DNA from: Trypanosoma brucei
Taxonomy: Eukaryota
DNA length: 64,000 nt
Direction of reading: 5' to 3'
NCBI GenBank assembly: GCA_000002445.1
Contig: CM000208.1
Span: forward strand, 1,056,001 to 1,120,000
Below, in pieces: positions 6,896 through 39,500 of the stretch. The stretch's first letter is position 1; each line of letters starts with the position of its first letter. The translations under genes were made by a program, and so were the position numbers. Under the pieces are notes generated by a model, which did no database searches, was not told the origin of the DNA, and was given only the letters and a program-made list of their open reading frames with translations.

Positions 6896-7942
6896 TTACA
6901 TGACTTTTTTACCCCTCTCTGATTCCTTTGTCGACGTTTCGTTCGGCTTCTCGTCATCCTTACGGACTCGCCACACGATGTTGTAATGCAGTTTTGAGAG
7001 CACCGCCATGGCTAAACGTAGCCAACCGTTAAGAAGAACTTGCAGAAGAAGCTCCAGCACATCAGTGGCCGGTTCCACACCCGCAACCATCCAACAAAGC
7101 AATTGCTTGTCAACACCCAAGCTTACGTCAAAACGATAGTGTTTGATGCTGTCGACAATTTGTTTTGCCATATCCAATGCGGTAACAGGTTCATCGCCAC
7201 CGAAGGAAGAAAGCGCAGTGCATTCCGGACTTTTTCGAATATTCTCCTGCTCGAAGCCGGGCGTGTAGACATCAGGTGGACTAATCACCTGGAACCGGAC
7301 GCCACGGCAGCTGTTTTCCATATCCATGCTGTGGGCAAAGGCCCGAATAGCAGCCTTTGATGCGGCATAAACGGAATACCCGGCAAGTGGGCAGCGGGCC
7401 GCAAGGCTGCTCACAAATACAACGCGTCCGGCACGTTGCTCAAGCATGGAGGGCAGAACCATGCGCAAAACATTTACACAACCGAAAAAATTGACATCCA
7501 TCATCCTTCGTGCCTCTGCAGGAGTAATGTCCACAAACCGAGCGGGAATAGAGAAACCTGCATTGCATACGAGAAGATCAAGACATTTCCCCCCAGCAGC
7601 AGTAACATCCTTCGACACTTTATCCATCGCTTGCTCCACTGAAACCTCATCGGCGACGTCCATAACGACGTATTCCACTTTCGTACCGGTTACTTTGGCC
7701 TCTACTCGAAGTGCCTCAACACCGGCCCTCAGCGACTGTTCATTTCTCGCGGCAATTATTACAACTCGTGCGCCCAGTTTGACGAGTTGCTTCGCCGTTT
7801 CCAAACCGATGCCCAAACTCCCACCAGTTACCAACGCACAGCAACCCTTTATGTGGAAGAAAGGCACTCGATGTACACTCCACCAGGCAGCAGCAAACAC
7901 CAGCGCAATCAGCAGCGCACACACAAGAAATATAACTCCCAT
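6896..7942 (-). CDS. short-chain dehydrogenase/reductase; 3-ketodihydrosphingosine (3-dehydrosphinganine) reductase-like
   Basis: 348 aa with an N-terminal TM segment. Glycine-rich NAD(P) loop ALVTGGSLGIGLE. Catalytic YxxxK (YAASKAAIRAF). PPDVYTPGFEQEN closely resembles the KDSR/TSC10 PPDTDTPGFAEEN segment. The hydrophobic C-terminus matches KDSR. Confidence 0.65.
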   Translation of the reverse strand: MGVIFLVCALLIALVFAAAWWSVHRVPFFHIKGCCALVTGGSLGIGLETAKQLVKLGARVVIIAARNEQSLRAGVEALRVEAKVTGTKVEYVVMDVADEVSVEQAMDKVSKDVTAAGGKCLDLLVCNAGFSIPARFVDITPAEARRMMDVNFFGCVNVLRMVLPSMLEQRAGRVVFVSSLAARCPLAGYSVYAASKAAIRAFAHSMDMENSCRGVRFQVISPPDVYTPGFEQENIRKSPECTALSSFGGDEPVTALDMAKQIVDSIKHYRFDVSLGVDKQLLCWMVAGVEPATDVLELLLQVLLNGWLRLAMAVLSKLHYNIVWRVRKDDEKPNETSTKESERGKKVM

Positions 7943-12219: not shown

Positions 12220-13893
12220 TTACTCCTCGCCCTGCGGGGGCACGGTGCTGGGCAAAAACTGTATGTTGGTTTCCTTCTTTATTTGATCCATAACGTCCAA
12301 CGCGAACTGCAAATCAGCGCGGGTGTGAGCAGCAGAAACACAGAAACGAATGCGGCACCCCAGTAGTGGAGTAGCGGGGTATCCAACAATCACAATAGCA
12401 AGACCACGGCGCATGCATTTCCTCCACACGGCAATTGCTCTCCCAAGATGGTAAAGCATTACGGGAACGACGGGGGAGGCGTCATTACCAAGGACAGAGA
12501 AACCACGATCGATCAAGCCCTGGCGGAAAAATCGTGAATTTTCCATCAGTTGCTGTATGTGCTTGGGTCCAATGTCGGTGCCATCATTACCGTTTAGGAC
12601 GTCAAGCACAGAGAGAGCCTGCTGAGCACAGGGAGGAGAAAGCGTATCGCAGTGAAGCGCTAGAGAGCTGTGAGTTCGGATGTGGTCAATTACGCTCTGG
12701 TCCCCAGCAAGATAACCGCCAATAGCCCCGAAGCTCTTGGTGAAAGTCCCCATGAGAATATCCACGTCACGCGGGTCCACACCGAAGTGCTCCGTTACGC
12801 CACGCCCCGTACGACCAGTTGCACCAATAGAGTGAGCCTCATCGACAAAGAGCAGGGCACCGTACTTTTTCTTAAGTTCAACAACACGAGGAAGATTAAC
12901 AAACTCTCCCTCCATACTATAGACACCCTCAACGACGATGACAATGCGGGTCCATGGCACGTATGCGCCCTTTGGATTCTGCCCGAGCACAACCGCCTCA
13001 CGGAGCACCTTCTCCAGGCTGTTCATGTCAGCATTCTTGAATACCTTGGCGCGGGCACCAGATAACCGTATGCCGTTAACGAGCGAAGAGTGGTTCAAGC
13101 TATCGCTGACCACAAGTGTATCCTCACCAAACAATGCAGGAAGACCACGAAAGTTTGTGCCGAAGCCCATCCCACACACAACAGCGTCCTCCTTCTTTAA
13201 AAAGTCTGCTATGGCACGCTCAAGTTTAGAAACTGGACCATGCTGACCAGCGTGTTGGGCGGCGCTGCATGAAGCAAGACCATAGCGATCTAAGCTGTTA
13301 AGCACCTCACGAGTAATATGGGGTATATCATCCGCAAACCCAAGGTAGTTGTATGACGAAAGGTTAACGCATGGTTTGATATTTCCAGTGAAGGAAAAAG
13401 TTCTATTGGAGTCCGTCGAAACCCGCTCCATCACACCAATCACACGAGACGGACGTGAGTCAATCGCATGGTTGAAGCAGTCACGCGCACGGCGGTAGAA
13501 ATGATTCTGCCAGAAATATTCGAGGAAAGTAAGCAGAGATGCATATCCCTCACGCTGCTTCCTTTTTGCGCCAAATAACTTCCGGCGAAGCTCGGCAATG
13601 CATCCAAAAGTGAATAAAAGTAAAAACGTGAAGTATGTCATTACCACAGAAATAAATGGAATGCTTTTGTGCTCCTCCTCCTGGTGCGTCACCCGCTTCG
13701 GCTGAGTATGCGTCCCCACACTTTCCTTTTGACATATCGTGTCCGTTGCACCATTTGCTGCAAAACTCGCCCGAACCGAACCTTGTTTATTGTACGCCTC
13801 GTCACAAGACTCGGCTTCAGTTACTGCCTTGTTCGCAACAACGGCACCCCGAGGTGCGTCTAAGAAATTCTCCGCCTCCACGTAAGTAGGCAT
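12220..13893 (-). CDS. SPT2: serine palmitoyltransferase subunit 2 (LCB2), PLP-dependent alpha-oxoamine synthase
   Basis: 557 aa with an N-terminal TM helix. PLP-lysine motif GTFTKSFGAIGGY. Conserved SMEGE, LFVDEAHSIG, GYPATPLLGCRIRFCVSAAHT. Confidence 0.8.
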   Translation of the reverse strand: MPTYVEAENFLDAPRGAVVANKAVTEAESCDEAYNKQGSVRASFAANGATDTICQKESVGTHTQPKRVTHQEEEHKSIPFISVVMTYFTFLLLFTFGCIAELRRKLFGAKRKQREGYASLLTFLEYFWQNHFYRRARDCFNHAIDSRPSRVIGVMERVSTDSNRTFSFTGNIKPCVNLSSYNYLGFADDIPHITREVLNSLDRYGLASCSAAQHAGQHGPVSKLERAIADFLKKEDAVVCGMGFGTNFRGLPALFGEDTLVVSDSLNHSSLVNGIRLSGARAKVFKNADMNSLEKVLREAVVLGQNPKGAYVPWTRIVIVVEGVYSMEGEFVNLPRVVELKKKYGALLFVDEAHSIGATGRTGRGVTEHFGVDPRDVDILMGTFTKSFGAIGGYLAGDQSVIDHIRTHSSLALHCDTLSPPCAQQALSVLDVLNGNDGTDIGPKHIQQLMENSRFFRQGLIDRGFSVLGNDASPVVPVMLYHLGRAIAVWRKCMRRGLAIVIVGYPATPLLGCRIRFCVSAAHTRADLQFALDVMDQIKKETNIQFLPSTVPPQGEE

Positions 13894-16100: not shown

Positions 16101-17093
16101 TTACCCGCCAGCAACCGACGGCATGCGCCTAATTATTTCGTTCTTCAACTCCCCGTACCGTATGTATTCGTAAGAGTGCGCCTGCCGATCATTCCTCGTT
16201 GGTGCAAATCCGTTACGCTGTTCAAAATCGCTCTCAAAACGGTGGAGAATCCGCTTCAAGTACCGCTTTTCAGCGGCGAGCTCCTCATTTGACATCTGTG
16301 ACACGCGGATACCACTGCCGATCGTCGGTTGCGTGGAGCCCGGCCCCTCGTTTGCGGACAGTCCTGACGATGTGGATGACCTGACCACCTGACGCTGCAA
16401 ACCACTGGGCTGAGTTGTAGACCCGACAACTCTACGAGCCGGGTTATCCACCTGACTGCCGGAGGGGGAGGGAGTCCGTACTCTCACTCCTGATGTCACC
16501 GTCCCCGCACTGTTCGCACGTTCACTACTGGATCGTGCACCCTGAGGCTGTTGTGTCTGCGATTGAGAGTTTGTGAGATTGTTATTGTCTTCGCCACCGC
16601 CATTGGTGGGTGACTCCTCTCCCCGTAAGCGGTTCTTTGCCAGTTTATATAGTTCATACACCTGTCGCAGCATGGCCTTATCACGAGTGGTCACTGCAAC
16701 CCCACGCTCTTCACAAAACACCCGCTCCCACTCGTGAATACGCTGTTTCATCTCTTTTTTAAAGGAAAGGCACTGTCCGTGCGTTAGAGATGTTACTACA
16801 CCGGCCGCTGCCGAGGGGGAAGTTCGCCCATCCCTCCCCCGCGAGTGGTCTAGGAATGTTATCTCACCACGGTAACTTGATAGAAGTTGCAGCGCCAGCA
16901 CATCTGCGGAGGGTGATTGGGGTCCATAGGTTTGCTCTATGCGGCTGCGCTGCTCACGCTGCAGCGAACGTACCGACTCAATAGTTGCTCTATTGTGCGC
17001 CCGGAAATCTTCGTCAATCACATGAGTTTGTGTGAAACTGAGTGCGTCGACAGTTTGCGCAGCCGCTTGCATCAACTGATCTCTCACGTCCAT
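16101..17093 (-). CDS. hypothetical protein, S/T/Q-rich low-complexity C-terminus
   Basis: 330-aa ORF with an ATG start, in polycistron orientation. No recognisable domain. Confidence 0.5.
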   Translation of the reverse strand: MDVRDQLMQAAAQTVDALSFTQTHVIDEDFRAHNRATIESVRSLQREQRSRIEQTYGPQSPSADVLALQLLSSYRGEITFLDHSRGRDGRTSPSAAAGVVTSLTHGQCLSFKKEMKQRIHEWERVFCEERGVAVTTRDKAMLRQVYELYKLAKNRLRGEESPTNGGGEDNNNLTNSQSQTQQPQGARSSSERANSAGTVTSGVRVRTPSPSGSQVDNPARRVVGSTTQPSGLQRQVVRSSTSSGLSANEGPGSTQPTIGSGIRVSQMSNEELAAEKRYLKRILHRFESDFEQRNGFAPTRNDRQAHSYEYIRYGELKNEIIRRMPSVAGG

Positions 17094-17685: not shown

Positions 17686-20600
17686 TCACATGCGTGCGGA
17701 CTGAATAACCGCCTCTGAGAGGTTGGCGAACGACACTCTAGAATGCGCCATGCACTTAAGTAGTGGCGACGGCTGCAAGTGCGCCCCGTGCCACACCGCC
17801 AACTCTTCCATTTTTTGCAACATCAAACCAGCACCCATGGCGTCAGCCAGTGTTAGCGCTCCGCCAGTGGTTTCACTGAACCCCAATGTCGCTATAGTCA
17901 GCGCGTTTGCATCTGCCGCAGTAAGCAGATGCCCTGACAGCAGTAACTCGCAGCATTCATTCACAACAACAGAGAGCAAACGGTCAGACAGCTCTGTATC
18001 TGTAAGATGACGACGTAAGTATTGCTTTTGAACCACCGTATTTAGTGCAACTGAAGAACCATCCGCTCCATATGTGTAGAAACCACCACGTCTTGTTCGA
18101 ATACCACCGAATCCGTCATTGCTCATACTACGAAGCACCTGGTATCCGATAGAAGGGAGCCAATCGTGTATCAGCGGATTGCGGTGGTCGTTCATGTGAC
18201 TCGTTTCCTCAATCAAACGCGAAACGGTAGAGGTACCCAAATGATCAGCGAGTCGGAATGGTCCACCCAGAAGCCGGAGCACACCTGTAGAGACACGTTC
18301 AACTTTCTCGATGTCGCAATGCATCGCAATCCGACACGCCTCTGTCACGAAAGCCGCGATGAGGCGGCCGCTACAGGAATGCCGGCAAACAACATATGGC
18401 CGATATTCTTGCTGCAAGTAAGCCAGTGCTGCGGAAAGTGTACTTGCCCGCAGGTGTTCAGGGCACCCTTCCCGACCAAAGAGACGAACCTCCTGTAGAT
18501 CTCGAAGGGGAGATACCGCATACGCTGAAACGGGTGATATAGTTGCAACGCAGTTAAATTCAGGTATGAGCGGGCGCGCAACATATTCATCGCCAATTAA
18601 TACCACGTTTGCCTTTGTTAGAACACCGGATTGGTCCTTCACCAAGCTCTTTATCGCTTCAATGTTCGATTTCCCGCAATCAAGCAAGACAGTTACTTGG
18701 TTGCAGCTCTCGGCAGACAACGCCCTTACTTTCCTCGGCCACAGCTCCGCTTCATCGGCCTTAAACCTCAAATACCCTCCATCCGGTGGGGACGAAAGCA
18801 CCCTACGTTGAATCTCACACCCATGCCCATAAATGCGAGCTGCGTTAAGTGCAGAGGGGGAAAAAAGAAATTCACTATAAATACCCTCGCTACGCAGTGT
18901 CCCTGTTTCCACTGCTGCGGACGCGTTCCCACTCTCTCCAACGTTGTGAGTACATCCCCCGCTCGCCATTGCAGCCAGACAATACCGACGCCAAGCCTGT
19001 GTAATGGGATTTGAGTACACCTCGACGCTGCTTCCCCCTGTGGAACGAGTAAGGAAAAATCTGCGTAGAACAAAATCCCGCAGCGCAGGTCGGTTTAAAA
19101 GGGCGAGCAAGGCGTTTTCCAGACGTAACAGCAAAGAGGTAGGTGGTGACGCTTTGCTGTGGTCGACGTAACTGAGGCGAAGGGCCGTGAGCCCCTCACG
19201 AGTATCGCGTGCGTGGCGGGCAACACCAGCATCCAGCAATGTCGCAGCAGTGAATCTGTACTGTTGCTGTGATGCAGCAAGAGTGCGCTGCGCACCGAAG
19301 TAGCGGCACAGCTGCCGCACAGCATGCGAAGTAGGGAAATCACCCAGCATGCACGACGGAAATCCAAAAGTAGTGTGGGTTGCGTCAAGGAACACGCGGT
19401 AATGACAAGCAAGGAACAACTCCGCCGCAAAATCATCAAGAGAACCTCCGTTTACGATCGCCACGAAATTAAGAGGAGGCGTCTTGGCCATGCGCAGAAA
19501 TAGCCGTTCCTTCTCCCGTATTAACTCAATACGCTCGGAGCACGAAAGCTCCAATGGACTATGCTTTGGCTGAAAGAATGCAATACCAGGCAGTGAGGTG
19601 AGCACTACATGGGTGACCGGCCCACTCATCGTAACGGAGTGATTTTCAATGGCCGTTATAGCCTCATTAAGCGCACCTACAGCCGAGATGGTACTTACCA
19701 GTGGCTCCCAAAGGGTGATGGTAACAATATGCTGCGATGACTCATCAAAGGACAACTTCAACAGCGCTGAACCACTTTGTGCAGTAAACGCTCCACAAGT
19801 CCACGGAGCCAACGGAGGGTGCTCAGTGATACAACTCGAGACAGTTGAAGACAAGTTGCTCCTTCCATCCGATTCTTTGGGTTGCTGCTCTTCCATTCCA
19901 TACAGTGAGGTTTCCAAGCTGGCGGCTGTCACAGTGTTGTTGATGCTCAATTCTGATAACTCCTTTTCTCCGACAACGTCATGGGTCACCCCCGTGTGCT
20001 TTTGCATAAATGCCCCTCCACTAAAGTCGTCAGGCACCATATGGTTGTCAATCAATGTCGCCTCCTTTTCGGACAACTCTTTAAGACCGCCTTTATCCGC
20101 AAGTTCCACAATTGGCTCAGATTTTTCGCAGTGTTCAAAGTTTAAACTGAGGCCTTCGATTTCTCGACCCACAATGACCGGAGAACGCACAAGGGGTCTC
20201 GTTGCTCGCGCCCGCTCAATCTCCTCATCCAGAGAGAGGGCAGAACTTTTCGCCCAAACAGTGTCTTGGGGGTCACCACTAGCGGTCGGTGGTGCGATAG
20301 TGGTTCGTGTGCCATTCCGAGAACCACTCACCGGCTTCGATGAAGCTACGAAGTCGCTTGGCATCGAAGGAGCCGCAGGTGGTGCCAACGGTGCTTTTGG
20401 TGGGTCCGGAGCTCTAGGTGCCGCCTTCGGAGCGAAAGGCACCTGCCGTTTCGACGGTGATGGATTATGTGACGCGAAAACTATTTTGATGTCTTGTATA
20501 TCCTCCACAACGTTTGAAAGGGACATGTCCCTATTTCCTTTATATGTATCTCCCCGGCTACGTATTTTTTCTTTCTTCGAGTAACCCACCTCTCTCCTTG

Positions 20601-21237
20601 AATTCCGGCCCTCCTTAGCACCCCCACTTCTCTGCAAACGGCCCCTTTCCTCATCCAACCCAGATGCACGATCATCTCCCGTAAAACGACCACGTGATCT
20701 CCTTGTAGAGGTCATAAAATTCACAGGAGCTGCTTTCTGTAGTTCCGGTGCTGCGGGAGCTGCTTTCTGTAGTTCCGGTGCTGCGGGAGCTGCTTTCTGT
20801 AGTTCCGGTGCTGCGGGAGCTGCTTTCTGTAGTTCCGGTGCTGCGGGAGCTGCTTTCTGTAGTTCCGGTGCTGCGGGAGCTGCTTTCTGTAGTTCCGGTG
20901 CTGCGGGAGCTGCTTTCTGTAGTTCCGGTGCTGCGGGAGCTGCTTTCTGTAGTTCCGGTGCTGCGGGAGCTGCTTTCTGTAGTTCCGGTGCTGCGGGAGC
21001 TGCTTTCTGTAGTTCCGGTGCTGCAGGAGCTGCTTTCTGTAGTTCCGGTGCTGCGGGAGCTGCTTTCTGTAGTTCCGGTGCTGCGGGAGCTGCTTTCTGT
21101 AGTTCCGGTGCTGCAGGAGCTGCTTTCTTGAGTGGTTCAGTTTGGTATCTTCTCACAGCATTCCCTGTTACCGCAAATAGGCAGCCGGTTGGGGGACCGC
21201 TGAGCGCCGAAGCGACTGTAGGTGCAAATCGCCGCAT
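17686..21237 (-). CDS. repeat protein: predicted mitochondrial presequence + 13 x PELQKAAPAA decapeptide repeats + degenerate enoyl-CoA hydratase and 3-hydroxyacyl-CoA dehydrogenase-like domains
   Basis: The track ORF starts at a TTG at 21285, and the first ATG gives MRRFAPTVASALSG (Arg/hydroxyl-rich). The repeat array is at 20724-21128. The middle has a crotonase-like segment AIVNGGSLDDFAAELFLACH...TFGFPSCMLGDFP. The C-terminal region resembles the HCDH NAD-binding and C-terminal domains, with a degenerate glycine loop. Confidence 0.6.
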   Translation of the reverse strand: MRRFAPTVASALSGPPTGCLFAVTGNAVRRYQTEPLKKAAPAAPELQKAAPAAPELQKAAPAAPELQKAAPAAPELQKAAPAAPELQKAAPAAPELQKAAPAAPELQKAAPAAPELQKAAPAAPELQKAAPAAPELQKAAPAAPELQKAAPAAPELQKAAPAAPELQKAAPVNFMTSTRRSRGRFTGDDRASGLDEERGRLQRSGGAKEGRNSRREVGYSKKEKIRSRGDTYKGNRDMSLSNVVEDIQDIKIVFASHNPSPSKRQVPFAPKAAPRAPDPPKAPLAPPAAPSMPSDFVASSKPVSGSRNGTRTTIAPPTASGDPQDTVWAKSSALSLDEEIERARATRPLVRSPVIVGREIEGLSLNFEHCEKSEPIVELADKGGLKELSEKEATLIDNHMVPDDFSGGAFMQKHTGVTHDVVGEKELSELSINNTVTAASLETSLYGMEEQQPKESDGRSNLSSTVSSCITEHPPLAPWTCGAFTAQSGSALLKLSFDESSQHIVTITLWEPLVSTISAVGALNEAITAIENHSVTMSGPVTHVVLTSLPGIAFFQPKHSPLELSCSERIELIREKERLFLRMAKTPPLNFVAIVNGGSLDDFAAELFLACHYRVFLDATHTTFGFPSCMLGDFPTSHAVRQLCRYFGAQRTLAASQQQYRFTAATLLDAGVARHARDTREGLTALRLSYVDHSKASPPTSLLLRLENALLALLNRPALRDFVLRRFFLTRSTGGSSVEVYSNPITQAWRRYCLAAMASGGCTHNVGESGNASAAVETGTLRSEGIYSEFLFSPSALNAARIYGHGCEIQRRVLSSPPDGGYLRFKADEAELWPRKVRALSAESCNQVTVLLDCGKSNIEAIKSLVKDQSGVLTKANVVLIGDEYVARPLIPEFNCVATISPVSAYAVSPLRDLQEVRLFGREGCPEHLRASTLSAALAYLQQEYRPYVVCRHSCSGRLIAAFVTEACRIAMHCDIEKVERVSTGVLRLLGGPFRLADHLGTSTVSRLIEETSHMNDHRNPLIHDWLPSIGYQVLRSMSNDGFGGIRTRRGGFYTYGADGSSVALNTVVQKQYLRRHLTDTELSDRLLSVVVNECCELLLSGHLLTAADANALTIATLGFSETTGGALTLADAMGAGLMLQKMEELAVWHGAHLQPSPLLKCMAHSRVSFANLSEAVIQSARM
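20724..21128. repeat. 13 copies of a 30-bp tandem repeat (tgctttctgtagttccggtgctgcgggagc), 11 identical plus 2 with a single synonymous G>A change; in-frame inside the CDS above
   Basis: Direct reading of lines 20701-21140. Repeat units start every 30 nt from 20731. Units at 21001 and 21091 carry ctgcaggagc. Confidence 0.95.
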
Positions 21238-22769
21238 TAGTGACGACAAACAATGTTGACAGCGGTGGATGTACTTATTCGGCAATACGTTATATTTACA
21301 CTCGTTGTGACAACCGGTTACTTATCCAACTTTCCCCTCTGCCGCCTTTGCAGGTGTGCAATTTGTTCTCCCCCTTCGCTTCGCACCAATGATTTCGTGA
21401 TAGGTTTGGTGTGCAGATTAGTTTTCTATGGCTCCAGTGACACTCTCCCTTGAAAAGTTAATATATTTTGGATTAACATACGCGAAGAAATAATTGTGAG
21501 AGGAGGAGGAGGAGTGCCACACCACCACGTAACAGCCGCAAGAAGAAAAAGTTGTGCCAGCACCTTTAGCGCATTCAGTCGTGGTCCCATGATATTTTAT
21601 CCCAATCTTTGGCCCTCTTTAGTATTCGGAAAATAATAACGGCACCCTACCGTTCCAGATAGCTTCCTCATACATGGAACTCACCTCGATACTCCACCTC
21701 CTAGAGTGGCAGTGGAGTATCACTTACACGGTCACCGTCCAAGGTCCCTCCAGCACCACCGAATGAGGAAATAACTTCAAACAGCATATCGACTGTGGGG
21801 AGCGTAAACAGCAACGGCAAGTTACAACAATCACTGACAGTAATAAAAGGGAATGGACGACATACGCCTCAATCGTATACTTTGAGCGCAACTTTTGAGC
21901 CTGCAGGCGCCATGAGCATGATTGCCTCGTAACATAACCACACGCAAACCGGTACCAGCGGGAACAACCACACGACCTGGGGTGGCAGGCCGTATACCTT
22001 TTCCCGATGTGCTCCCACGTCTACCGGATCAAGTGCACGCAGAACGAAAAACGTCGCAACGGTAACAAACAATACCCAAAGAGGAAGCGCGATAGGTCGC
22101 AAAAACATGCTTCTGTCTCTACAGTCGGCTTTCACTTGTGTAAGTGTAGCGGCTGTGGAGTAAACGTTCCGACTCCGTTTTTGTATATGACGTCGCAGTA
22201 AATGGTGCGTAATTAACGGCGGTAAACGAATGTTTTCTTTTTTCTTTTACCGTCTATACCTTACTGGCATGTAGGCGTCCAATCTTTATCGACACTGATA
22301 TCTCTCCTACCTTTCTAAGTGAGTTAGATAATATATTTGAAAGAGAAGAGAAAACAAATAAACTCACCGTCCCCCGGTACGATCAGTTTCAGGGTTGTAC
22401 CAATAGGCTGCGTTTTGTTCGGTCACTGTAAGTCATTTGATGTTGCCATTCTTTCACGTTTATCCTTCACCCACACCCATTTTCGGCCAAACAATCCAAA
22501 CTTTTAGGCAAAGTTAACTGGCATTAAGACACCATGACCAAAGGGGAATCAAAAACTAACTCCTCGATACAAGCCGTGACATTTCTTCCGACTCGCGCCG
22601 ATGACGGCAAGGGCGTGCCGGTTAACTGACTTGAGCAGCTTCGAGCTGGCTTCGAGGGCCCGATCACAGAGACTCGGGACGGCGCATAACCGTCCTACCA
22701 ACGTAATGCAACATTTGCATACTTCCACCTGGTCACATCCTGCGCGCTTTCAGCACCCTGCCTGGGCAC

Positions 22770-33535: not shown

Positions 33536-36500
33536 TTAAAATGACGGGGCCCTTGGAAGTGGAGGTGGTAAATCACTGTCTAGTGAAGGAAGCGGCTGTA
33601 CACAGCGGCGGTCTTCAGTTCCATGGACGTCACCAGAGTCTTTCTGCTGGGATTCAGAGTACGGCCAGGTGTCACCCTCCTGCACACTGCTTACGTCCTT
33701 AAAACGTTGTCTAAGTTCTTGAACCTCAGTCCGGTACCTCTCCGCAGTTAATTCAGCAGCTTGTAACCTTTTCTGCAATCTCGCCTGTTGCTCCGACATG
33801 GCGCTTCCTCCCATGGAAGAATCTAAGAGACGCCTCGACAACTTCTCGGATTGCTCGAGAAGCTGCTTTTCTCTGGATCGGAGCTCCCTTAGTTCACGCA
33901 CAAGGTCCATATGTTTGGCTACGCTAACAGTTTTCGACTTCAGGACAGAATTCTCCTGTTGAAGGCGCTCTACTACAACTTTCATATTCTCCACCAAAGT
34001 CTCAAGTGCCTCCACGCGACCACGCTCTTTATGCGCCCCTCCAACCCTCATATTAATGGAATCTGCCTTGAGGACGTCATCGAGGTGGCGTTCAAGGCGT
34101 GATACCTTCAGTTGCAAAGCCTCCCGCTCAAATCGAAGGTCGAGAATAATACCATTCTTCTCCAGCAGCTCCCGTTCAAGGGAATTTTGATCACTGGGCT
34201 TCATACTAGTTAACACGTTGAGCGCCGGCGCAGTAACGGCTGTTGTCGGTATTACCTGATAACGATTTAGTTCAACTGTCAAGCGTTGATTTTCAGCTAT
34301 TAGCTCCGCAACACGTTGTTCTAAACTACGGAACCTCACCTCGTTCTCGACTCTTAGCTCCCTCTGCAGAGACTCAATCACTGCTTCCAGCTTCAACACA
34401 GCACGCTTACTGGCACGCACGCCCGCTGGAGAGGTGGGCTGAATACAGTCAGGGGTGTTAACTTGTCGTCTGCGCAGTTCCTCGAGCTCCTTCTTATAGA
34501 AGTCAATCTGTTGCGCTGCATCGTCAAGGCTATCCAGGCGACTCTTTAACATCTCCACTTGACGTTGCAACTCCTCATTCTCCTTAATTTTGGCCTCCAT
34601 TTGCTGGATGAGCTGTGTGTTTGATCCTGCTGCTGCCTGTAACAGTGGAGAAACAAGAGCAGAGGGGTTGGAGAAGTGACCTTTTTCCACTCCGGATGGC
34701 CGGTGGTGCCTCTTCCCCCTTTCATCGAGGGATTGGTGAAGAATGGCGGTCTCCCGAACCGCACCGAGTTCCCGAGTCTCAAGTTCCTTCCTGGTGCTGA
34801 GCAATTGAGAGCGAAGGGTGTTATTGATGTCACGTTCACCGCGAAGCTGCTCGCTGACATCTTTTAAGTCACGGGCCTGGCGACTCACTAACGCGCGCAG
34901 CGACGATATTTCGTTCAGATTGTCTCGCTGTGCTCCCTCAACCTCACTGCGCGCAACGGCTGCCACCTGGGATTGGTCAATGACGTGAGATCCTACAACA
35001 GGAGTTGCACTACAATTAGTGCAGTCGGCTAAGGCTGGATGAAGTAGAGGCTCCCTTGGAGACTTCATAACTTCCAAAGGTCGCCCTTCCAAGTAGCCTC
35101 GTTGGCATAACTCCTGACCCTCACGTCGTTGCTGTTGCACTTTCCACGGCACCTCGGCAAGAACCTCACCCTCCCCATTCTCCTGAACTGTCTGAAGAAC
35201 CTGCGTTCCTCTCTCGTGTGAAGCCTGCATCCTCTTCGGTGACCGCCGTCCCTGCAACGACACCTTAGAGGGTTGTGCAGCTAGTTCCCGCTTCAGTCGC
35301 AAAATTTCATGCTCCTTCTCCTGGAGCTGAAGATGAAGTTCGTACGCCAGTTGCTGAACTTCCTCATGCTTCCTAAGAGTTTCTTCTTCACGACGAACCT
35401 TCTCCTCGAGTTCCTTCTGAATAGACTGTAACCGCAGGTTGACGCTCTTTAGATGCTCACTGGACTCTTGCTGAATGTTTCCCATCCGCTGTGCCAACGC
35501 CATCTCATGTTGGTGCTTACGGGAAATGCTATCACGTTCCTGCGCTTCATCAACAAGTCTCTGCTTCAGCAGGTTCGTCGCTATGATGAGTTTTTCATTC
35601 TGCTCTTCCATATGGTGGATGTCCGCGTTCAATCTTTCGTTCATCGCAACAAGCCTTCGCGCCCTCTCCACGTCGTTCTGTTGCTTTATAATTTCTTCAC
35701 GCAACGAGTCTAGTTGCTCTCGCCACTTATCGGTATCCGTCTGCAACCGCCGAGCTTCTCGTCTCTCTTCGTCCAACTTTTCTCGGGCTTCTGCAAGCTG
35801 TGTTTCTAGGAATGAGAGTTGAGCCCGCAGTTCAGTCTCTACCACACCTGGCTTCGCTGCTTTTGCTGCTACAACACTTTTGAGAACACCTCCCTGTTCC
35901 ACTGTAAGATTTCGTGCCTCGTACAACTGCTGGGCCAGCAAATCCCTTTCAGTGTGCGCCCGCTGCAATTCGTCGGTGAGGGCGAGCTCCCGCTGGCGTA
36001 AGTTTGCTATTACAACACTTTGGTCATCTATGATGTCAACAGCAGGTGTCGCACCTGATGGCGGCACCTGTGGCGTCCGGTGTGAGTGCTGCCTTTCCAC
36101 TTCAGTTGGGCATCCAGATACCGAAGGAAAATGCTGCTGTTGCCGTCGGGCATCCGCTACCTGGTCACTGAGTCGCGACTCCAACATTATGTTAGCAGTC
36201 CTCGCGTTTCTCAACTCCGCCCTAAGGCGAAGTACTTCTTTCGTGAGTACAGCGACGTGCTCAGACACCCCACTGGCTGGTTCCCCCGCATCGGGTAGTT
36301 GGGCGCCGTATTCGTACTGCTCAGCTGCACCGTTGATTGCCTCACGGAAACGTTCAACCATGGCGCTGTTTTCCTTGAAAAGTCGCTCATGCAAGCGTTC
36401 CATCCGCGTAGACTCTTCCACCTGGCACTCCAGGTATTTTCGGCGCTCTGCCTGCAGTTGTCCCTGCAACTGTTCAATGCACATGTCTTTGCTCTTCAGC

Positions 36501-39500
36501 ATATCCTGTAAACACCTACTATGGTGCTCAGCAGCGCGATGTGACACCTCCGCTTGGGCTTCATGTGAACGAATTACACGCCTCTCGCGCTCTTCAGCCC
36601 GCTGCCGCTCATCATGCAACTGCTGCTGTACGTTCTGTAGCCGCTCGCGGAGTCTGCCGACCTCACCCTTTAGAGCATCATTCTCTGCAGTCACCTTCCG
36701 TGCTGCAATACCCTCCTCCTTCAACTGCTTTTTGAGAAGGTCACATTCATGCACTAGCACCCCTTGCTTTTCCATAACCTGATTGTACTCTCGAGCGGCC
36801 ATATCAACAGCCTCGTGTTGATGTCGTTGACCGAAATCGCCCTGCTGGATGACGACAGCGGGGGATTCGGACTTACTGAAAACCGACTCTTTCAACTGTA
36901 AAAGATTTCTGAAAGCCTCCCCATCAGCGGCTGTAAGAGTGGTCCCGTTGAGCTCCAGGCGACTGATCTCCTCGGTCAGCTGCTGCACGTGCGTCTCCGC
37001 CCTTTTTAATTTCTGCTGGAGGAAACTACAATCCTCCCGCAACTCTACTATCTTCACATCTTTATCACGCACAGCGGACAAAGACGCCAGAAGCTTCGCA
37101 TGAAGCGCATCCACACGCCCCTCCCCATCCTTAACTTTAAGGAGCTCCAGCTGCTGCTGCAACAGTGCTGCGTTGCCCCTTGCCTCTGCCAGCTGGGCCG
37201 CAAGCTCGCTCCGGATTGCCTGGGACCGTTCATTGTCAGTAATGGCATCCATAAGACGTTTGTGTAGTATTTCCGTACGATGGGGCGATAAGGCACCAGC
37301 AAAGCAGCGCTGTTCACTACGCACGTAGTCAACTACTGCCACCGTCTGCTCGACGTACTTCCTATATAAACGGAAGGCATTCAGTTTGTAGGTAGTCGCT
37401 TCGTTCACAGCAACCCTGAGATTCGCCTCCATGGCGTGAAGCTGCATCCGAGCTTGTTTGAGCTGAAGAACGGCCAACTCACTCTGACAACGAAGAGCTG
37501 AGTGTTGTCGGATAGCAGCTGAGACAAAGTCACTTAACCTCTGCGAATTCCCTGCATCGCGAACCAGTGAAAGCTCCTGCTTCGTAGCTTCCAACTCAAT
37601 TTCAAGACGCTTACATTCCCCCTGCAAATCGAGTGAATAGTGAAGGACACCTAAATTAATGGACTTCAGCCTCGCAACCTCCCTCTCAAGTTGATAGATT
37701 TTACTTCCCTCCGACATGATTCCCCCTAGTTCTCGGTTATGTCCAATTGCTGCTCCCTCTTGTTGTTGCCTTTGTTCCTTTGCGACGCCGTTCTGCTGGT
37801 CTTGCGGGGTGCTGCAGACGGCCGGGACACCACTACCACTCGTACCAGTCCCGCTCCCAATTGAGTTATCTATATGTTCATGCAATAAGGCAAGCTCTCG
37901 TCGGGCGTCGCCAAGCTGAGCCTCTATGGTTGACACTTCTCGCTCTTTATCCTCACACCGTTTCATGTAGAGGTTGCACTTCTGCTGCCAAGTTGTGACC
38001 TCCGACTCCCAACGTGTAACCGACGAGATGACACCTCCGCCAACAACGGGACCATCCTTAACTTCGTTGGCCTCACTTACGGTATCGCGCAACCTCCGCA
38101 GACACTCCAGCTCGACTCGCTGCTCCTCTAATTTCTCCTCTATTACAATTCTATGTGCCCTTTGATTCTGCACCTCCAGGCGCAAAACTTTAAGCTCCTC
38201 GATATGTTCCATGTTACGATACACTCTCTGTAGGTGAAGAAGGTAAGTACTATCCTCCCTGAAGAGTCTACCACGCAAAATTCCTCCCAACCTTTGCTGC
38301 ATCTCGTCAATGACGTCATTCTCGATACACACACTACTCGAGGACCGGGGGAGAACAAATCCTGTAGAAGTGTTCTCAAGTGCCTCCTTTAGTGATTTAA
38401 AGACAGTGTTAACATACTCACGCATGGACCGCTCAGACTTCGAGGCCTCCCCATGCATTTCCATAACACGACGCAGGCGCTGCAGGAGTTTGGTCTCGCG
38501 CTGCCTTAACAAGACAATCTTTTGAAGTAGTTCCCGAGTATTCACAGATTCCATACGCTGTATGGTGCCTTCCACATCCTTCAGAATGTTGGTACGCTCA
38601 TTCAGTTTCTCTGTCAGTTCTCTATTCATTTCCTGCAGAGCAGCAACCTGGTTTCGGACGTCTTCCTGCTGAGAACTCGCCTCCGTGCACTTTCGCTTCA
38701 TTTCCTCGTGTACGGCGTGCTGCTGGGAAAGTTGGTCCTTCATAACATCAACTGTGCTTTTCAAAGACGTGATGAGTTCGTCCTTCTTACGTAATTGATT
38801 CTCGAAGGTCCGTTTGAGGTAGTTTAGGGAACTGGAGCGGACAGGGGTGCCACAGTTACAACCCTCAGGAAAGGACGGTGGTGAGAAAGCACCCTCTGCG
38901 CTCGAAGGAATCCGGGAGGGGCCTAAGTTGTCTACTGCTCCTTCTTTGGTCTCCAGAATCTGCGGACTGTCTTCCACGGTGTCATCGAAGACCAGACCCT
39001 CAAAGAAGGCTGAGCGATACTTGTCACGCTCATCTAGAAGCATGTCTCTTTCGGCTGTAGTTGCGGCGAGTTGCTCCCGTAGAGTTGTTTGTGTGGCTGC
39101 GTTGTCCTTAATAGTGAGCTCGGACTGCTCTAAAAGCTGGAGGGCACTCTGAAGCTGTTCCCTCAAGCGTAATGTGTCTGCAGCACCTTCGCCATTTTCA
39201 TCTGCTACCCGACTCGCCGCAATAATATCGACACGGTCGCGTAAGCGCTGTAGGGCAGACGCTGCCTCTACTGAGGAACTGAAGTCGGTTTTCCCCGAGA
39301 GTTCACGCAAAACCTCTTCCATTCGTTGTTTCACAAAATCATTAAAGTGTTCCATCTCCTTCCGCCTCAATCGAAGCTCCTGAAAGTACTTCTCTTTGTA
39401 ATTTTCCTCCCCAGCCTCCTCAACGATTACCCTACCGACCTTCATCTGACCTACAATTTTGTCTAGCTGCTTCAGTTGCTCGGGGTTGAGACCGAGTTCC

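What the first reader, a model, noticed from the sequence alone, without database searches (positions are those of the whole stretch)
17686..21237. Repeat-containing probable pseudoenzyme: mitochondrial-type presequence, 13 decapeptide repeats, and degenerate ECH + HCDH domains (multifunctional beta-oxidation enzyme architecture)
After an Arg-rich N-terminus (MRRFAPTVASALSG) the protein has 13 perfect PELQKAAPAA repeats. It then has a crotonase-like domain that keeps the first catalytic Glu (GGSLDDFAAELFLACH). The second catalytic Glu of the P-E-x-G-L motif is replaced by Ser (FGFPSCMLGDFP). A 3-hydroxyacyl-CoA dehydrogenase-like region follows, and its NAD glycine loop is degenerate (VLLDCGKSN versus the canonical GxGxxG). 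The domain order ECH then HCDH mirrors trifunctional-enzyme alpha / peroxisomal multifunctional enzymes. The loss of key catalytic and cofactor motifs suggests a repurposed, non-catalytic scaffold. The bona fide AUH-like hydratase at 1208-2041 in the same window keeps both Glu residues.
Basis: partly seen in the sequence, partly recalled or inferred. Interest (0 to 1): 0.65.

Follow-up and report, generated by a model that had tools for sequence, protein, structure and literature searches.

The report
Dead trifunctional-enzyme paralogue with repeat tail
This Trypanosoma brucei gene (Tb927.10.4080) makes a mitochondrial protein with the fold of a fatty-acid-oxidation enzyme that has lost its catalytic and cofactor-binding residues and carries a long, disordered, repeat-rich front end; it is real and conserved across kinetoplastids, but its role is unknown.

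Summary
The gene lies on the minus strand (17686-21237) and is identical to T. brucei TREU927 Tb927.10.4080 (Q38BJ2, 1183 aa, "hypothetical protein, conserved"). It has an MRR presequence and a 30-bp x 13.4 tandem array (12 perfect PELQKAAPAA units plus imperfect ends). About 300 further residues are predicted disordered. The C-terminal 700 residues align end to end with FadJ/FadB/HADHA alpha subunits (hhalign 99.9%, E 1.5e-35; Foldseek TM 0.68).

The first hydratase Glu (E606) is invariant. The second is Ser628. The GxGxxG loop is deleted, and the NTS and catalytic-His motifs are lost. These losses are shared by orthologues from Trypanosoma, Leishmania, Phytomonas and Bodo saltans. One detail is wrong: VLLDCGKSN is strand beta-2, not the glycine loop.

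Published proteomics shows ATOM40-dependent mitochondrial import and an inner-membrane fractionation class in both life stages. A glycosomal reading of the -ARM end is rejected.

New here: a second dead paralogue, Tb927.10.8610, and conservation of the KAAPAAP repeat core across trypanosomatids with 3 to about 100 copies. A 2014 study reported only the glycosomal TFE-alpha1 candidate in African trypanosome genomes, so this lineage was overlooked.

The non-catalytic scaffold role is inferred, not shown. Interest is moderate.

The parts
17686..21237 (-). Complete CDS of Tb927.10.4080 (Q38BJ2), 1183 aa plus TGA stop
   Evidence: ORF list and translation. 100% identity to XP_822656.1. The gene ID comes from the Peikert 2017 supplement. 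It is confirmed by mapping the Tb927.10.4090 tagging primers just upstream.
21133..21237 (-). N-terminal mitochondrial presequence region (aa 1-35, MRRFAPTVASALSG...; cleavage site unknown)
   Evidence: pI 10.7. MRR plus hydrophobic N-termini recur in T. cruzi, T. melophagium, Leishmania, locus L001 and paralogue B. TargetP is positive and abundance depends on ATOM40.
20719..21132 (-). Ala/Pro-rich decapeptide tandem array (aa 36-173): 12 perfect PELQKAAPAA units plus imperfect end units
   Evidence: TRF 20726-21128, period 30, 13.4 copies, 99% matches. Unit-by-unit listing. The core KAAPAAP is conserved in other species with 3 to about 100 units.
20524..20718 (-). Basic Arg/Lys-rich disordered segment (aa 174-238)
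   Evidence: The overlapping stretch aa 170-245 has 19 K+R against 11 D+E, pI 10.8. pLDDT is 25-30 in the AF2 model.
20473..20523 (-). Conserved short motif 1, SLSNVVEDIQDIKIVFA (aa 239-255)
   Evidence: Conserved in all Trypanosoma orthologues in alignment A3. AF2 gives a weak hairpin with low confidence.
20359..20439 (-). Proline-rich segment (aa 267-293)
   Evidence: Sequence. Equivalent poly-Pro tracts occur in orthologues. Predicted disordered.
20188..20301 (-). Conserved motif 2: TIAPP ... WAKSSALSLDEEIERARATRPLV (aa 313-350)
   Evidence: Nearly invariant I/A/P, D, A and PL columns, including the distant orthologue P0027. Similar motif in Leishmania and Bodo sequences. AF2 predicts a helix at aa 332-346 with pLDDT about 50-55.
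20020..20085 (-). Conserved motif 3: LKELSEKEATLIDNHMVPDDFS (aa 385-406; consensus LxPLPxxEAxxIDxHEIPD)
   Evidence: Alignment A3, with H and P nearly invariant. Short helix in the AF2 model.
19174..19761 (-). Domain A: crotonase (enoyl-CoA hydratase)-like fold (aa 493-688). E606 is kept (codon 19420-19422). Ser628 replaces the second catalytic Glu (codon 19354-19356).
   Evidence: PDB phmmer to Mtb FadB residues 22-229, E 1e-11, and to FadJ. Catalytic columns across the family. hhalign. pLDDT is mostly 85-94. Pfam ECH_1 scores only 14-15 bits.
18808..19134 (-). Domain B: helical linker region (aa 702-810)
   Evidence: AF2 secondary structure. hhalign alignment to the canonical linker.
18409..18774 (-). 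Domain C: degenerate Rossmann-like domain (aa 822-943). GxGxxG is deleted. VTVLLDCGKSN is beta-2 (18664-18696). NTS is replaced by ISPVSAY. The catalytic His position is Tyr906 or deleted. There is a single strand, LQEVRLF.
   Evidence: No Pfam 3HCDH_N hit at E<=10. hhalign. Family columns. Beta-alpha-beta order in the model.
17689..18396 (-). Domains D and E: helical 3-hydroxyacyl-CoA dehydrogenase C-terminal repeats (aa 948-1183). This is the best conserved part. It ends -QSARM.
   Evidence: Pfam 3HCDH PF00725 at aa 958-1014, above its cutoff. phmmer aa 909-1164 to FadJ 449-699. pLDDT about 90. Invariant columns.

Best explanation
Tb927.10.4080 is a nuclear-encoded, mitochondrially imported, catalytically degenerate paralogue of the alpha subunit of the fatty-acid beta-oxidation trifunctional enzyme (the FadJ/HADHA-type hydratase plus dehydrogenase).

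Shown:
- It keeps the whole five-domain fold.
- It has lost the second hydratase Glu, the NAD(H) glycine loop, the NTS motif and the catalytic His. The loss is shared by every orthologue, back to free-living Bodo.
- It is expressed and imported through ATOM40.
- It fractionates with inner-membrane proteins in both life stages, although it has no transmembrane helix.
- Its first ~490 residues are a presequence, a copy-number-variable Ala/Pro-rich repeat array, a basic stretch, a proline-rich stretch and three conserved short motifs. All of this is predicted disordered.

Inferred:
- The folded body no longer oxidises or hydrates acyl-CoA. It serves as a peripheral inner-membrane binding or dimerisation module, as TFE-alpha bodies do in membrane-associated TFE complexes.
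- It possibly pairs with its equally dead paralogue Tb927.10.8610.
- The long flexible N-terminal arm acts as a spacer that presents the short motifs and the basic patch to partners that are still unknown.
For: Identity and homology:
- 100% match to Q38BJ2.
- PDB phmmer E 4e-14 to FadJ, 1e-11 to Mtb FadB, 2e-9 to human HADHA.
- Profile-profile probability 99.9%, E 1.5e-35, 617 columns.
- AF2 model pLDDT 81.7, pTM 0.81. Its best PDB matches are full-length TFE-alpha chains, E 2.4e-24, TM 0.68.

Loss of sites:
- E to S at residue 628, GGG to DDF, FxGGAD lost, GxGxxG deleted, NTS and HFF lost, N of GNR lost.
- The losses are shared by about 30 clusters (at 50% identity). These include T. vivax, T. 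cruzi, Leishmania, Leptomonas, Strigomonas, Phytomonas and Bodo saltans.
- The PDB entry titles name E141 and H462 as the Mtb catalytic-site mutants.

Orthology by synteny: the downstream gene is conserved in L001.

Expression and location:
- 29 peptides. ATOM40 knock-down ratio 0.186 in purified mitochondria, 0.43 in the organelle fraction and 0.56 in whole cells.
- Unaffected by SAM50 knock-down (0.98) or ERV1 knock-down (0.92).
- hyperLOPIT final TAGM-MAP class 'mitochondrion - IM' with probability about 1 in two T. brucei sheets, taken to be bloodstream and procyclic forms. TAGM-MCMC gives 0.9997.
- No hydrophobic stretch above 1.5 on a 19-residue Kyte-Doolittle scan.

Disorder of aa 170-489: pLDDT below 50, apart from short helices at the conserved motifs.

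Paralogue Tb927.10.8610: 26% identity over 698 aa, E 6e-41. It has the same GFPS and no GxGxxG, and it is also in the mitochondrial reference set.
Against: - No biochemical or genetic test of activity or function is available. No paper in the searchable library names the gene in its main text.
- E606 and the surrounding DFGAE(L/V)F motif are invariant across the whole family. Asp853 at the end of beta-2, the usual ribose-binding position, is conserved in group A. This could mean retained ligand binding or altered chemistry rather than a purely structural role.
- Oxyanion holes are made by backbone atoms, so they cannot be judged from sequence.
- The inner-membrane class comes from co-fractionation. 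One single-iteration table gave a sub-threshold 'ER' allocation (file 10).
- The TriTrypDB cellular-component terms quoted in the hyperLOPIT table include 'kinetoplast'. This hints at a more specific site.
- The proposed pairing with Tb927.10.8610 and the spacer role of the repeats are untested ideas.
- The protein is not found in any solved trypanosome complex.
Confidence: 0.6

Rival explanations
1. kDNA/nucleoid- or RNA-associated adaptor. The TFE-alpha-like body is a moonlighting module. The basic disordered segment binds kinetoplast DNA or mitochondrial RNA, and the protein acts at or next to the kinetoplast rather than generally on the inner membrane.
For: - The TriTrypDB cellular-component terms quoted in the hyperLOPIT annotation table are 'kinetoplast...; mitochondrion'. 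Neighbouring genes carry typical tagging-derived terms there, so these probably come from TrypTag.
- The stretch aa 170-245 covering the basic segment has pI 10.8 and contains RGR/RGRF.
- From general knowledge, not tested here: the crotonase-fold protein AUH binds RNA, and HADHA has been recovered in mammalian nucleoid preparations.
Against: - The MitoTag re-annotation flags an artefactual 'kinetoplast proximal enrichment' for some tagged mitochondrial proteins.
- The gene is absent from the kinetoplast-protein preprint's main text.
- It is absent from the ribosome, editing and MRB1 lists compiled by Peikert et al..
- hyperLOPIT places it with inner-membrane markers, not the matrix/RNA classes.
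- I could not retrieve the primary TrypTag record, because the stored file was cut.
Confidence: 0.15
2. Still an enzyme with altered chemistry. [quoted passage not shown]
For: - E606 and the DFGAE motif are invariant.
- Asp853 at the end of beta-2 is conserved.
- Allmann et al. 2014 report that the dehydrogenase activity remains after Tb927.2.4130 knock-out, so another gene must encode it.
- Crotonase-superfamily members with one acidic residue catalyse other reactions (general knowledge).
Against: - There is no glycine-rich dinucleotide loop at all.
- NTS Ser, the catalytic His and the Asn of GNR are all missing.
- One of the two active-site strands is deleted.
- The FxGGAD and GGG loops of the CoA and oxyanion site are replaced.
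- Known enoyl-CoA isomerases keep the second Glu, not the first (recalled, not tested).
- The residual activity was attributed to glycosomes, whereas this protein is mitochondrial.
Confidence: 0.12
3. Glycosomal or dually targeted protein. The C-terminal -ARM acts as a PTS1, as in peroxisomal multifunctional enzymes.
For: - All Trypanosoma group-A orthologues seen full-length at the C-terminus end in -QSARM, except T. vivax (-SART). -ARM fits the [SAC][KRH][LM] consensus (general knowledge).
- PEX14 knock-down gives a mild drop, ratio 0.75, p 0.011.
Against: - The motif is not conserved outside the genus: T. vivax -SART, Leishmania/Leptomonas -SGLL(PS), others unrelated.
- The gene sits in the NON-glycosomal reference set of Peikert et al..
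- There is strong ATOM40 dependence and an inner-membrane class in hyperLOPIT.
Confidence: 0.03
4. A decaying gene or an assembly or annotation artefact, that is, a repeat-expanded relic of a lost beta-oxidation enzyme with no function.
For: - African trypanosomes were reported to lack mitochondrial TFE-alpha2.
- Repeat number differs widely between assemblies: 13 in TREU927, about 48 in T. b. gambiense.
- Some orthologue models are truncated or frame-shifted in the repeats.
Against: - The reading frame is intact over 1183 codons.
- 17-29 peptides are detected in several proteomes.
- Orthologues with the same substitutions and many invariant columns exist from Bodo to Leishmania and Trypanosoma.
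- T. cruzi and Leishmania keep this gene alongside a canonical TFE-alpha2, so it is not the relic of that gene.
Confidence: 0.02

Closest known systems
Bacterial and mitochondrial trifunctional enzyme alpha subunits (E. coli FadJ / anaerobic TFE-alpha, M. tuberculosis FadB, human HADHA)
   Same: The domain order and overall fold are the same: crotonase domain, linker, Rossmann-like domain, then two helical HAD C-terminal domains. The match is end to end. The best sequence scores are to FadJ (77 bits) and HADHA (68 bits). Like them it is membrane-peripheral and, in eukaryotes, mitochondrial.
   Different: It lacks the second catalytic Glu, the GxGxxG loop, the NTS Ser, the catalytic His, and one active-site strand. 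It carries an N-terminal extension of about 470 residues, disordered and repeat-rich, that is absent from the canonical bacterial alpha-subunit homologues aligned here. Whether it has a thiolase beta partner is unknown.
Peroxisomal/glycosomal multifunctional enzyme type 1 and T. brucei TFE-alpha1 (Tb927.2.4130)
   Same: Same hydratase plus dehydrogenase architecture. Rat MFE1 and Arabidopsis MFP2 are among the structural matches.
   Different: The similarity is weaker: MFP2 scores 44 bits, and rat MFE1 is not found by sequence. TFE-alpha1 is glycosomal with a PTS2 and has canonical motifs according to Allmann 2014. This protein is mitochondrial and degenerate.
Tb927.10.8610 (Q38AB1), second T. 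brucei paralogue
   Same: 26% identity over the whole TFE-alpha-like region (E 6e-41). It has the same GFPS substitution, no GxGxxG and an MRR-type N-terminus in relatives. It is listed as mitochondrial and responds to ATOM40 knock-down.
   Different: 885 aa, with no Ala/Pro repeat array and far fewer peptides detected. In my sample, group B was seen only in Trypanosoma (rough NJ tree without support values).
AUH / methylglutaconyl-CoA hydratase (Tb927.10.4000, same window 1208-2041)
   Same: Crotonase fold, mitochondrial.
   Different: It is a single-domain protein of 277 aa with a strong ECH_1 hit (188 bits). Both catalytic Glu residues are intact, and its class is matrix. It is a bona fide enzyme candidate, not a relative of the TFE-alpha-like body beyond the superfamily.
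Ala/Pro-rich flexible linkers (for example the inter-domain linkers of 2-oxoacid dehydrogenase E2 chains), recalled from general knowledge
   Same: Composition, and an expected extended, flexible, non-globular behaviour. The array is predicted disordered by context (one search covers only its last four residues).
   Different: Here it is a near-perfect tandem array of 13 to about 100 units at the mature N-terminus, not a short inter-domain linker. The similarity to Legionella DotG repeats and the sub-threshold Pfam 'Decapeptide' hit (24 bits against 45) are compositional.

Membership tests
TFE-alpha / multifunctional enzyme family (FadB/FadJ/HADHA) | Hydratase-linker-dehydrogenase five-domain architecture and fold | tested here: met
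   hhalign probability 99.9%, E 1.5e-35, 617 columns. Foldseek matches full-length FadJ, FadB and HADHA, TM 0.55-0.68. phmmer E 4e-14.
TFE-alpha / multifunctional enzyme family (FadB/FadJ/HADHA) | Pair of catalytic Glu residues in the crotonase domain (GGGxE ... PE) | tested here: not met
   E606 is present. The second position is Ser628 in Trypanosoma and Leu in Leishmania-type sequences. It is never Glu in groups A or B.
TFE-alpha / multifunctional enzyme family (FadB/FadJ/HADHA) | GxGxxG dinucleotide-binding loop in domain C | tested here: not met
   No Pfam 3HCDH_N hit at E<=10. The loop falls in a deletion in hhalign. The aligned columns read RFKADEAELW.
TFE-alpha / multifunctional enzyme family (FadB/FadJ/HADHA) | HAD catalytic residues (NTS Ser, HFF His, Glu partner, GNR Asn) | tested here: not met
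   Ser, His and Asn are absent in all orthologues. Only one strand is present where canonical enzymes have the HFF and LVEV strands. The Glu is ambiguous (E916 or Q).
TFE-alpha / multifunctional enzyme family (FadB/FadJ/HADHA) | Pfam domain thresholds (ECH_1, 3HCDH_N, 3HCDH) | tested here: inconclusive
   3HCDH C-terminal domain scores 25.1-27 bits, above its cutoff of 22.1. ECH_1 scores 14-15 bits, below 27. 3HCDH_N gives no hit.
TFE-alpha / multifunctional enzyme family (FadB/FadJ/HADHA) | Complex with a thiolase beta subunit, and measurable hydratase and dehydrogenase activities | not testable with these tools
   No interaction or activity data were found. The gene is not named in any searchable main text.
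Pseudoenzyme (catalytically dead homologue kept by selection) | Clear homology to an enzyme family with loss of essential catalytic or cofactor residues | tested here: met
   (see the rows above).
Pseudoenzyme (catalytically dead homologue kept by selection) | Retention as an expressed, conserved gene | tested here: met
   32 clusters with E<1e-30, spanning Bodo saltans to Trypanosoma and Leishmania. Conserved synteny. 17-29 peptides in proteomes of both life stages.
Pseudoenzyme (catalytically dead homologue kept by selection) | Demonstrated absence of catalytic activity | not testable with these tools
   This requires enzymology.
Presequence-targeted mitochondrial proteins of T. brucei | N-terminal targeting signal and dependence on the ATOM40 import pore | tested here: met
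   Published data read here. TargetP is positive. ATOM40 knock-down ratios are 0.186, 0.43 and 0.56. The protein is insensitive to SAM50 and ERV1 knock-down. The MRR N-terminus is conserved.
PTS1 glycosomal proteins | Functional, conserved C-terminal tripeptide and PEX-dependent abundance | tested here: not met
   -ARM occurs only within Trypanosoma, and even T. vivax ends -SART. The gene is in the non-glycosomal reference set, and PEX14 knock-down gives only 0.75.
Pfam PF25296 'Decapeptide repeat region' | Score at or above the gathering threshold | tested here: not met
   24.3 bits against a cutoff of 45 for this protein. The longer T. b. gambiense array carries a precomputed hit.

The most novel reading that the evidence does not exclude
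Kinetoplastids keep a lineage-specific pair of dead TFE-alpha paralogues, Tb927.10.4080 and Tb927.10.8610. Together these form an inner-membrane platform. The Ala/Pro repeat arm, whose length can be tuned by copy number, and its conserved short motifs tether another system to the membrane. That system could be the kinetoplast DNA periphery or mitochondrial gene-expression machinery, or the platform could sense acyl-CoA or lipid state through the vestigial substrate tunnel. This would be a repurposing of a beta-oxidation enzyme body as an organelle-architecture element.
Probability: 0.12. Interest if true: 0.7.

Novelty: new variant of a known kind. Interest (0 to 1): 0.45.

Why it matters
T. 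brucei mitochondrial biology still contains hundreds of 'hypothetical conserved' proteins. This one is abundant and is detected in what appear to be both the bloodstream- and procyclic-form datasets. It is conserved from free-living bodonids to parasites.

A 2014 study found only the glycosomal TFE-alpha1 candidate in African trypanosome genomes and reported no mitochondrial TFE-alpha2 (PMC4262433). Here the same organisms are shown to keep two mitochondrial proteins with the TFE-alpha fold and dead active sites.

This matters for three reasons:
- It cautions against reading the automatic 'fatty acid beta-oxidation' GO terms on this gene as evidence for the pathway.
- It adds a clean example of enzyme-to-scaffold repurposing.
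- It gives concrete handles for experiments: E606, Ser628, three short motifs, and a repeat array of variable length.

It is not a new kind of system, and no function is yet attached to it.

Tried and rejected
1. Mitoribosome or other solved-complex subunit. Sequence and profile searches of all PDB chains returned only bacterial, human and plant TFE/MFE enzymes and no trypanosome chain. Rejected for complexes solved so far.
2. Glycosomal PTS1 (-ARM). Rejected.
3. VLLDCGKSN as a degenerate GxGxxG. Rejected in favour of beta-2. An earlier MAFFT run had placed it against the DLVIEAV strand, which shows how unstable alignment is in this region.
4. Transmembrane anchoring as the reason for the inner-membrane class. 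No hydrophobic segment was found.
5. A structured middle region. AF2 on aa 170-1183 gave only disorder plus short helices. That model is low quality overall (pLDDT 58.8) because its alignment had only 10 rows.
6. Literature. No main text names Tb927.10.4070-4100, Tb927.10.8610, the old IDs, Q38BJ2 or the repeat peptides.
7. Primary TrypTag record. The published supplement was truncated in storage and the preprint files lack the gene. The MitoTag paper (Pyrih 2023) is not held. The complexome and kinetoplast preprints have no stored supplements.
8. tRNA and Rfam scans of the window found nothing.
9. DotG/IcmE similarity (E 4e-14) is a compositional match of A/K/E-rich decapeptides, not homology.

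Full report
**What is at the coordinates.** The ORF list shows a 1199-codon open frame at 17686-21285 on the minus strand. The plus-strand ORFs inside it (19649-20584 and the 'LRELLSVVPV' ORF at 20748-21131) are antisense by-products. The protein is 100% identical to T. brucei brucei TREU927 XP_822656.1 / EAN77828.1 / UniProt Q38BJ2, 'hypothetical protein, conserved', on the 4.05-Mb chromosome 10 record. The Peikert et al. 2017 supplement links Q38BJ2 to Tb927.10.4080 (old ID Tb10.70.3190, 127.1 kDa).

I checked the gene numbering independently:
- The aminotransferase at 12220-13893 fits TbLCB2, Tb927.10.4050.
- The published C-terminal tagging primers for Tb927.10.4090 map to 21789-21951. This identifies that gene as the 88-aa ORF at 21869-22135, immediately upstream of the finding.

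**Repeats.** Tandem Repeats Finder reports one array at 20726-21128 with period 30, 13.4 copies and 99% matches. It is the only array in the 64-kb window scoring at least 100. Unit by unit there are 12 perfect PELQKAAPAA units, preceded by EPLKKAAPAA and followed by PELQKAAPVN. In the other register this is 13 perfect KAAPAAPELQ units. The DNA units differ only at one synonymous CCC/CCT site.

The array is not a T. brucei oddity:

| Species or source | Repeat unit | Approximate copies |
|---|---|---|
| T. b. brucei TREU927 | PELQKAAPAA | 13 |
| T. b. gambiense | PELQKAAPAA | 48 |
| T. cruzi | APEPPRAAPA | 40 |
| T. melophagium | APEPPKAAPV | 26 |
| Sequence of unknown species (P0003) | PPEPVKAAPA | 33 |
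| L. braziliensis-group | APKAAPAAPV | 31 |
| L. tarentolae | APQAAPAAP | 100 |
| GC-rich trypanosomatid contig (L001) | KAAPAAPETP | 3 |

So the core KAAPAAP is conserved, while the rest of the unit and the copy number drift. Units are homogenised within each genome. Several database models start after the array (T. theileri, T. grayi, P0027). For P0027 I showed that this is a truncated gene call. The open frame in L001 continues upstream to MRRVQQRLLWCVG... at nt 2158 and includes the repeats.

**The folded C-terminal 700 residues.**
- Pfam gives only a modest 3HCDH C-terminal hit (25-27 bits, cutoff 22.1). The ECH_1 hit is sub-threshold (14-15 bits against 27). There is no 3HCDH_N hit.
- More sensitive comparisons are unambiguous. 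phmmer against all PDB chains finds E. coli FadJ (E 4e-14, both halves), M. tuberculosis FadB (1e-11, hydratase domain) and human HADHA (2e-9).
- A five-species profile raises these to 7e-21 for FadJ and 5e-18 for HADHA.
- hhalign against 20 canonical bacterial enzymes gives probability 99.9%, E 1.5e-35, over 617 columns spanning both proteins.
- An AlphaFold2 model of aa 475-1183 has pLDDT 81.7 and pTM 0.81. Its top PDB matches are full-length TFE-alpha chains: FadJ E 2.4e-24 and TM 0.68, then Mtb FadB, HADHA, P. fragi FadB, plant MFP2 and rat MFE1.

**Catalytic and cofactor motifs.** The table compares canonical motifs with this protein and its relatives.

| Canonical motif | In Tb927.10.4080 | Across the family |
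|---|---|---|
| GGGxE | DDFAAE (E606 kept) | Glu invariant in every relative |
| GLPEV | GFPSC (Ser628) | Ser everywhere, except Leu in Leishmania/Leptomonas-type sequences |
| FxGGAD | FFQPKHS | lost |
| PGxGGTQ | PTSHAVR | lost |

hhalign and the strand order of the model place VTVLLDCGKSN on strand beta-2, the canonical GIxVxLxD with its terminal acidic residue. The glycine-rich loop itself falls into a deletion after YLRFKADEAELW.

Other changes in this half:
- SNTS is replaced by ISPVSAY.
- The HFF histidine is Tyr906 in one alignment and deleted in others.
- Where canonical enzymes have two strands (HFF and LVEV), this protein has one (LQEVRLF).
- The Asn of GNR is Arg, Lys or Gln.

The PDB entry titles for Mtb FadB name E141 and H462 as the active-site mutants. 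This is independent confirmation of which residues matter. The same losses occur in all relatives examined.

**Family and distribution.** An exhaustive profile search of 1.84 billion cluster representatives gave 32 clusters with E<1e-30. These are set apart from ordinary FadB-like enzymes, which begin near 1e-29 to 1e-25. Named members come from T. vivax, T. cruzi, T. rangeli, T. grayi, T. theileri, T. conorhini, T. melophagium, Leishmania (L. tarentolae and Viannia species), Leptomonas, Strigomonas, Phytomonas and free-living Bodo saltans. One further member comes from a 'Colponema' transcriptome and is probably kinetoplastid prey. Orthology is supported by synteny, because the gene downstream in L001 matches the window gene at 16101-17093.

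Unexpectedly, the hits split into two groups. T. vivax, T. grayi, T. melophagium and T. brucei each have a second, shorter paralogue. In T. brucei it is Tb927.10.8610 (Q38AB1, 885 aa). It is 26% identical over 698 residues (E 6e-41), has the same GFPS substitution and no glycine loop, and has no Ala/Pro repeats. A rough neighbour-joining tree without support values puts all of these in one clade, with group B found only in Trypanosoma in my sample.

**Relation to known trypanosome TFE genes.** Allmann et al. 2014 searched for beta-oxidation candidates. They reported that African trypanosomes have a single TFE-alpha gene, the glycosomal PTS2-bearing TFE-alpha1 (Tb927.2.4130). They reported that Leishmania and T. 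cruzi also have a mitochondrial TFE-alpha2 (LmjF.26.1550, TcCLB.508981.39). Tb927.10.4080 is not mentioned. T. cruzi and Leishmania have orthologues of Tb927.10.4080 as well as TFE-alpha2. The family is therefore a third, much more divergent lineage, not a degraded TFE-alpha2. Its best sequence scores are to the FadJ/HADHA side of the family, but I did not do a labelled phylogeny.

**Where the protein is.** All localisation evidence is from published data that I read; none was generated here.

Peikert et al. 2017:
- After ATOM40 knock-down the protein falls to 0.186 in gradient-purified mitochondria (log2 -2.43, p 0.0013, 29 peptides). It falls to 0.43 in organelle fractions and 0.56 in whole cells.
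- It is unchanged after SAM50 knock-down (0.98) and ERV1 knock-down (0.92).
- It is TargetP-positive and present in the Panigrahi mitochondrial proteome.
- It is absent from the respiratome, ATPase, ribosome, editing and MRB1 lists.
- It sits in the non-glycosomal reference set, with only a 0.75 ratio after PEX14 knock-down.

Zikova et al. 2017 list it in the mitoproteome with function 'unknown'.

hyperLOPIT (Moloney et al. 2023):
- The final TAGM-MAP tables give 'mitochondrion - IM' with probability about 1 in two T. brucei sheets. I take these to be bloodstream and procyclic forms.
- TAGM-MCMC gives the same class with probability 0.9997. The markers for this class include AOX, TIM62, SDH5 and MIC10-1.
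- One single-iteration table gave a sub-threshold ER allocation.
[quoted passage not shown] The first and last look like tagging-derived terms. However, a later preprint warns that some such kinetoplast calls are an artefactual 'kinetoplast proximal enrichment'. I could not retrieve the primary record.

The sequence has no hydrophobic stretch long enough for a membrane span. Inner-membrane behaviour would therefore have to be peripheral, as it is for canonical TFE complexes (general knowledge).

**The N-terminal half.** A second AF2 run on aa 170-1183 used only a 10-row alignment and is a poor model overall (pLDDT 58.8). It predicts aa 170-489 as disordered, with three exceptions: a weak hairpin at SLSNVVEDIQDIKIVFA, a helix at SLDEEIERARATRPL and a short helix at EKEATLID. 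These coincide with the three best-conserved motifs in the orthologue alignment. The second and third are recognisable in the distant orthologue P0027 and, by eye, in Leishmania and Bodo sequences. Between the repeats and motif 1 lies a basic stretch; aa 170-245 has pI 10.8.

**Interpretation.** The secure statements are as follows:
- This is a TFE-alpha homologue.
- It is imported into the mitochondrion.
- It lacks the residues that define both canonical activities.
- These losses are ancient and maintained.

That makes 'pseudoenzyme' the right working label.

How the protein works is inference. I favour a peripheral inner-membrane scaffold. In this view the folded body provides membrane, partner or dimer contacts, possibly with Tb927.10.8610. 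The disordered arm is a spacer that displays short motifs.

The main reservations are these:
- The first Glu and its DFGAE context are invariant.
- Asp853 at the end of beta-2 is conserved, which may point to ligand binding or altered chemistry.
- The 'kinetoplast' term, together with the basic segment, could point to a kDNA- or RNA-linked role.
- No functional experiment on this gene was found in the searchable literature.

**Verdict.** This is a real, expressed, conserved, kinetoplastid-specific variant of a well-known enzyme family. The databases already carry the C-terminal domain annotation and the mitochondrial localisation. What I did not find described:
- the dead-active-site analysis;
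- the pairing with a second dead paralogue;
- the conserved repeat core and short motifs;
- the fact that the 2014 beta-oxidation survey of T. brucei does not mention it.

Interest is moderate (0.45). It is worth a targeted experiment, but it is not a new kind of system.

Noticed in passing
not in window; T. brucei chromosome 10, Tb927.10.8610 (protein P0192, Q38AB1): A second TFE-alpha-like paralogue in T. brucei (885 aa). It has the same dead motifs and no repeats. It is listed as mitochondrial, with ATOM40 knock-down ratio 0.675. Orthologues exist in T. vivax, T. congolense, T. rangeli, T. grayi and T. melophagium. It is not named in any searchable paper.
   Followed up: partly
window 21869-22135 (-): An 88-aa hydrophobic ORF ending ...KVALKVYD is Tb927.10.4090. 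The published TrypTag C-terminal tagging primers map to 21789-21951, and the localisation text starts 'endoplasmic reticulum'. One hyperLOPIT table also gives an ER allocation (0.98, final call 'unknown'). Small ORFs like this are easy to overlook.
   Followed up: partly
window 6896-7942 (-) and 12220-13893 (-): A short-chain dehydrogenase lies two gene numbers from serine palmitoyltransferase subunit TbLCB2 (Tb927.10.4050). By position it is Tb927.10.4040, which is ER in hyperLOPIT. From memory it is 3-ketodihydrosphingosine reductase. If so, the first two steps of sphingolipid synthesis are near neighbours in one transcription unit. About 4.3 kb between them has no ORF of 200 aa or more.
   Followed up: no
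window 1208-2041 (-): Tb927.10.4000, methylglutaconyl-CoA hydratase (AUH-like). Strong ECH_1 hit (188 bits), both catalytic Glu residues intact, MRR N-terminus, hyperLOPIT class 'mitochondrion - matrix 2'. It is a working crotonase in the same window as the dead one.
   Followed up: yes
protein P0022 (T. b. equiperdum RHW69449.1), repeat region aa ~80-240: The repeat array is translated in other frames (QHRNYRKQLL..., STGTTESSS...) for part of its length. This indicates indel errors in that long-read assembly, or real frameshifts. The copy number there is uncertain.
   Followed up: no
L001 1096-5619 (+), Logan SRR10017629 contig: The called gene (P0027, 939 aa, starts at 2800) is truncated. 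The open frame continues upstream to an MRR start at nt 2158 and includes about 3 KAAPAAPExP repeats. Similar truncation probably affects the T. theileri, T. grayi, T. vivax, Leptomonas and Strigomonas models.
   Followed up: partly
window 17689-17703 (-), C-terminus: -QSARM is invariant in the Trypanosoma group-A orthologues seen, except T. vivax (-SART), and it matches the PTS1 consensus. Yet the protein is mitochondrial by several data sets. The reason for this conservation is unexplained. The last helix is part of domain E, so it may be structural.
   Followed up: partly
window 44114-48439: ORFs of 200 aa or more switch from the minus strand (up to 44114) to the plus strand (from 48439). 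This looks like a divergent strand-switch region between polycistronic units. It was not examined.
   Followed up: no
window 33536-41155 (-): A very large ORF of 2539 aa. It was not analysed.
   Followed up: no
window 16101-17093 (-): Tb927.10.4070 (330 aa). It has only a weak Drc1-Sld2 Pfam hit. The GO terms quoted in the hyperLOPIT table list basal body, pro-basal body, bilobe and cell tip. The gene is syntenic with the gene downstream of the orthologue in L001, which is flagged FAM13A-like.
   Followed up: no
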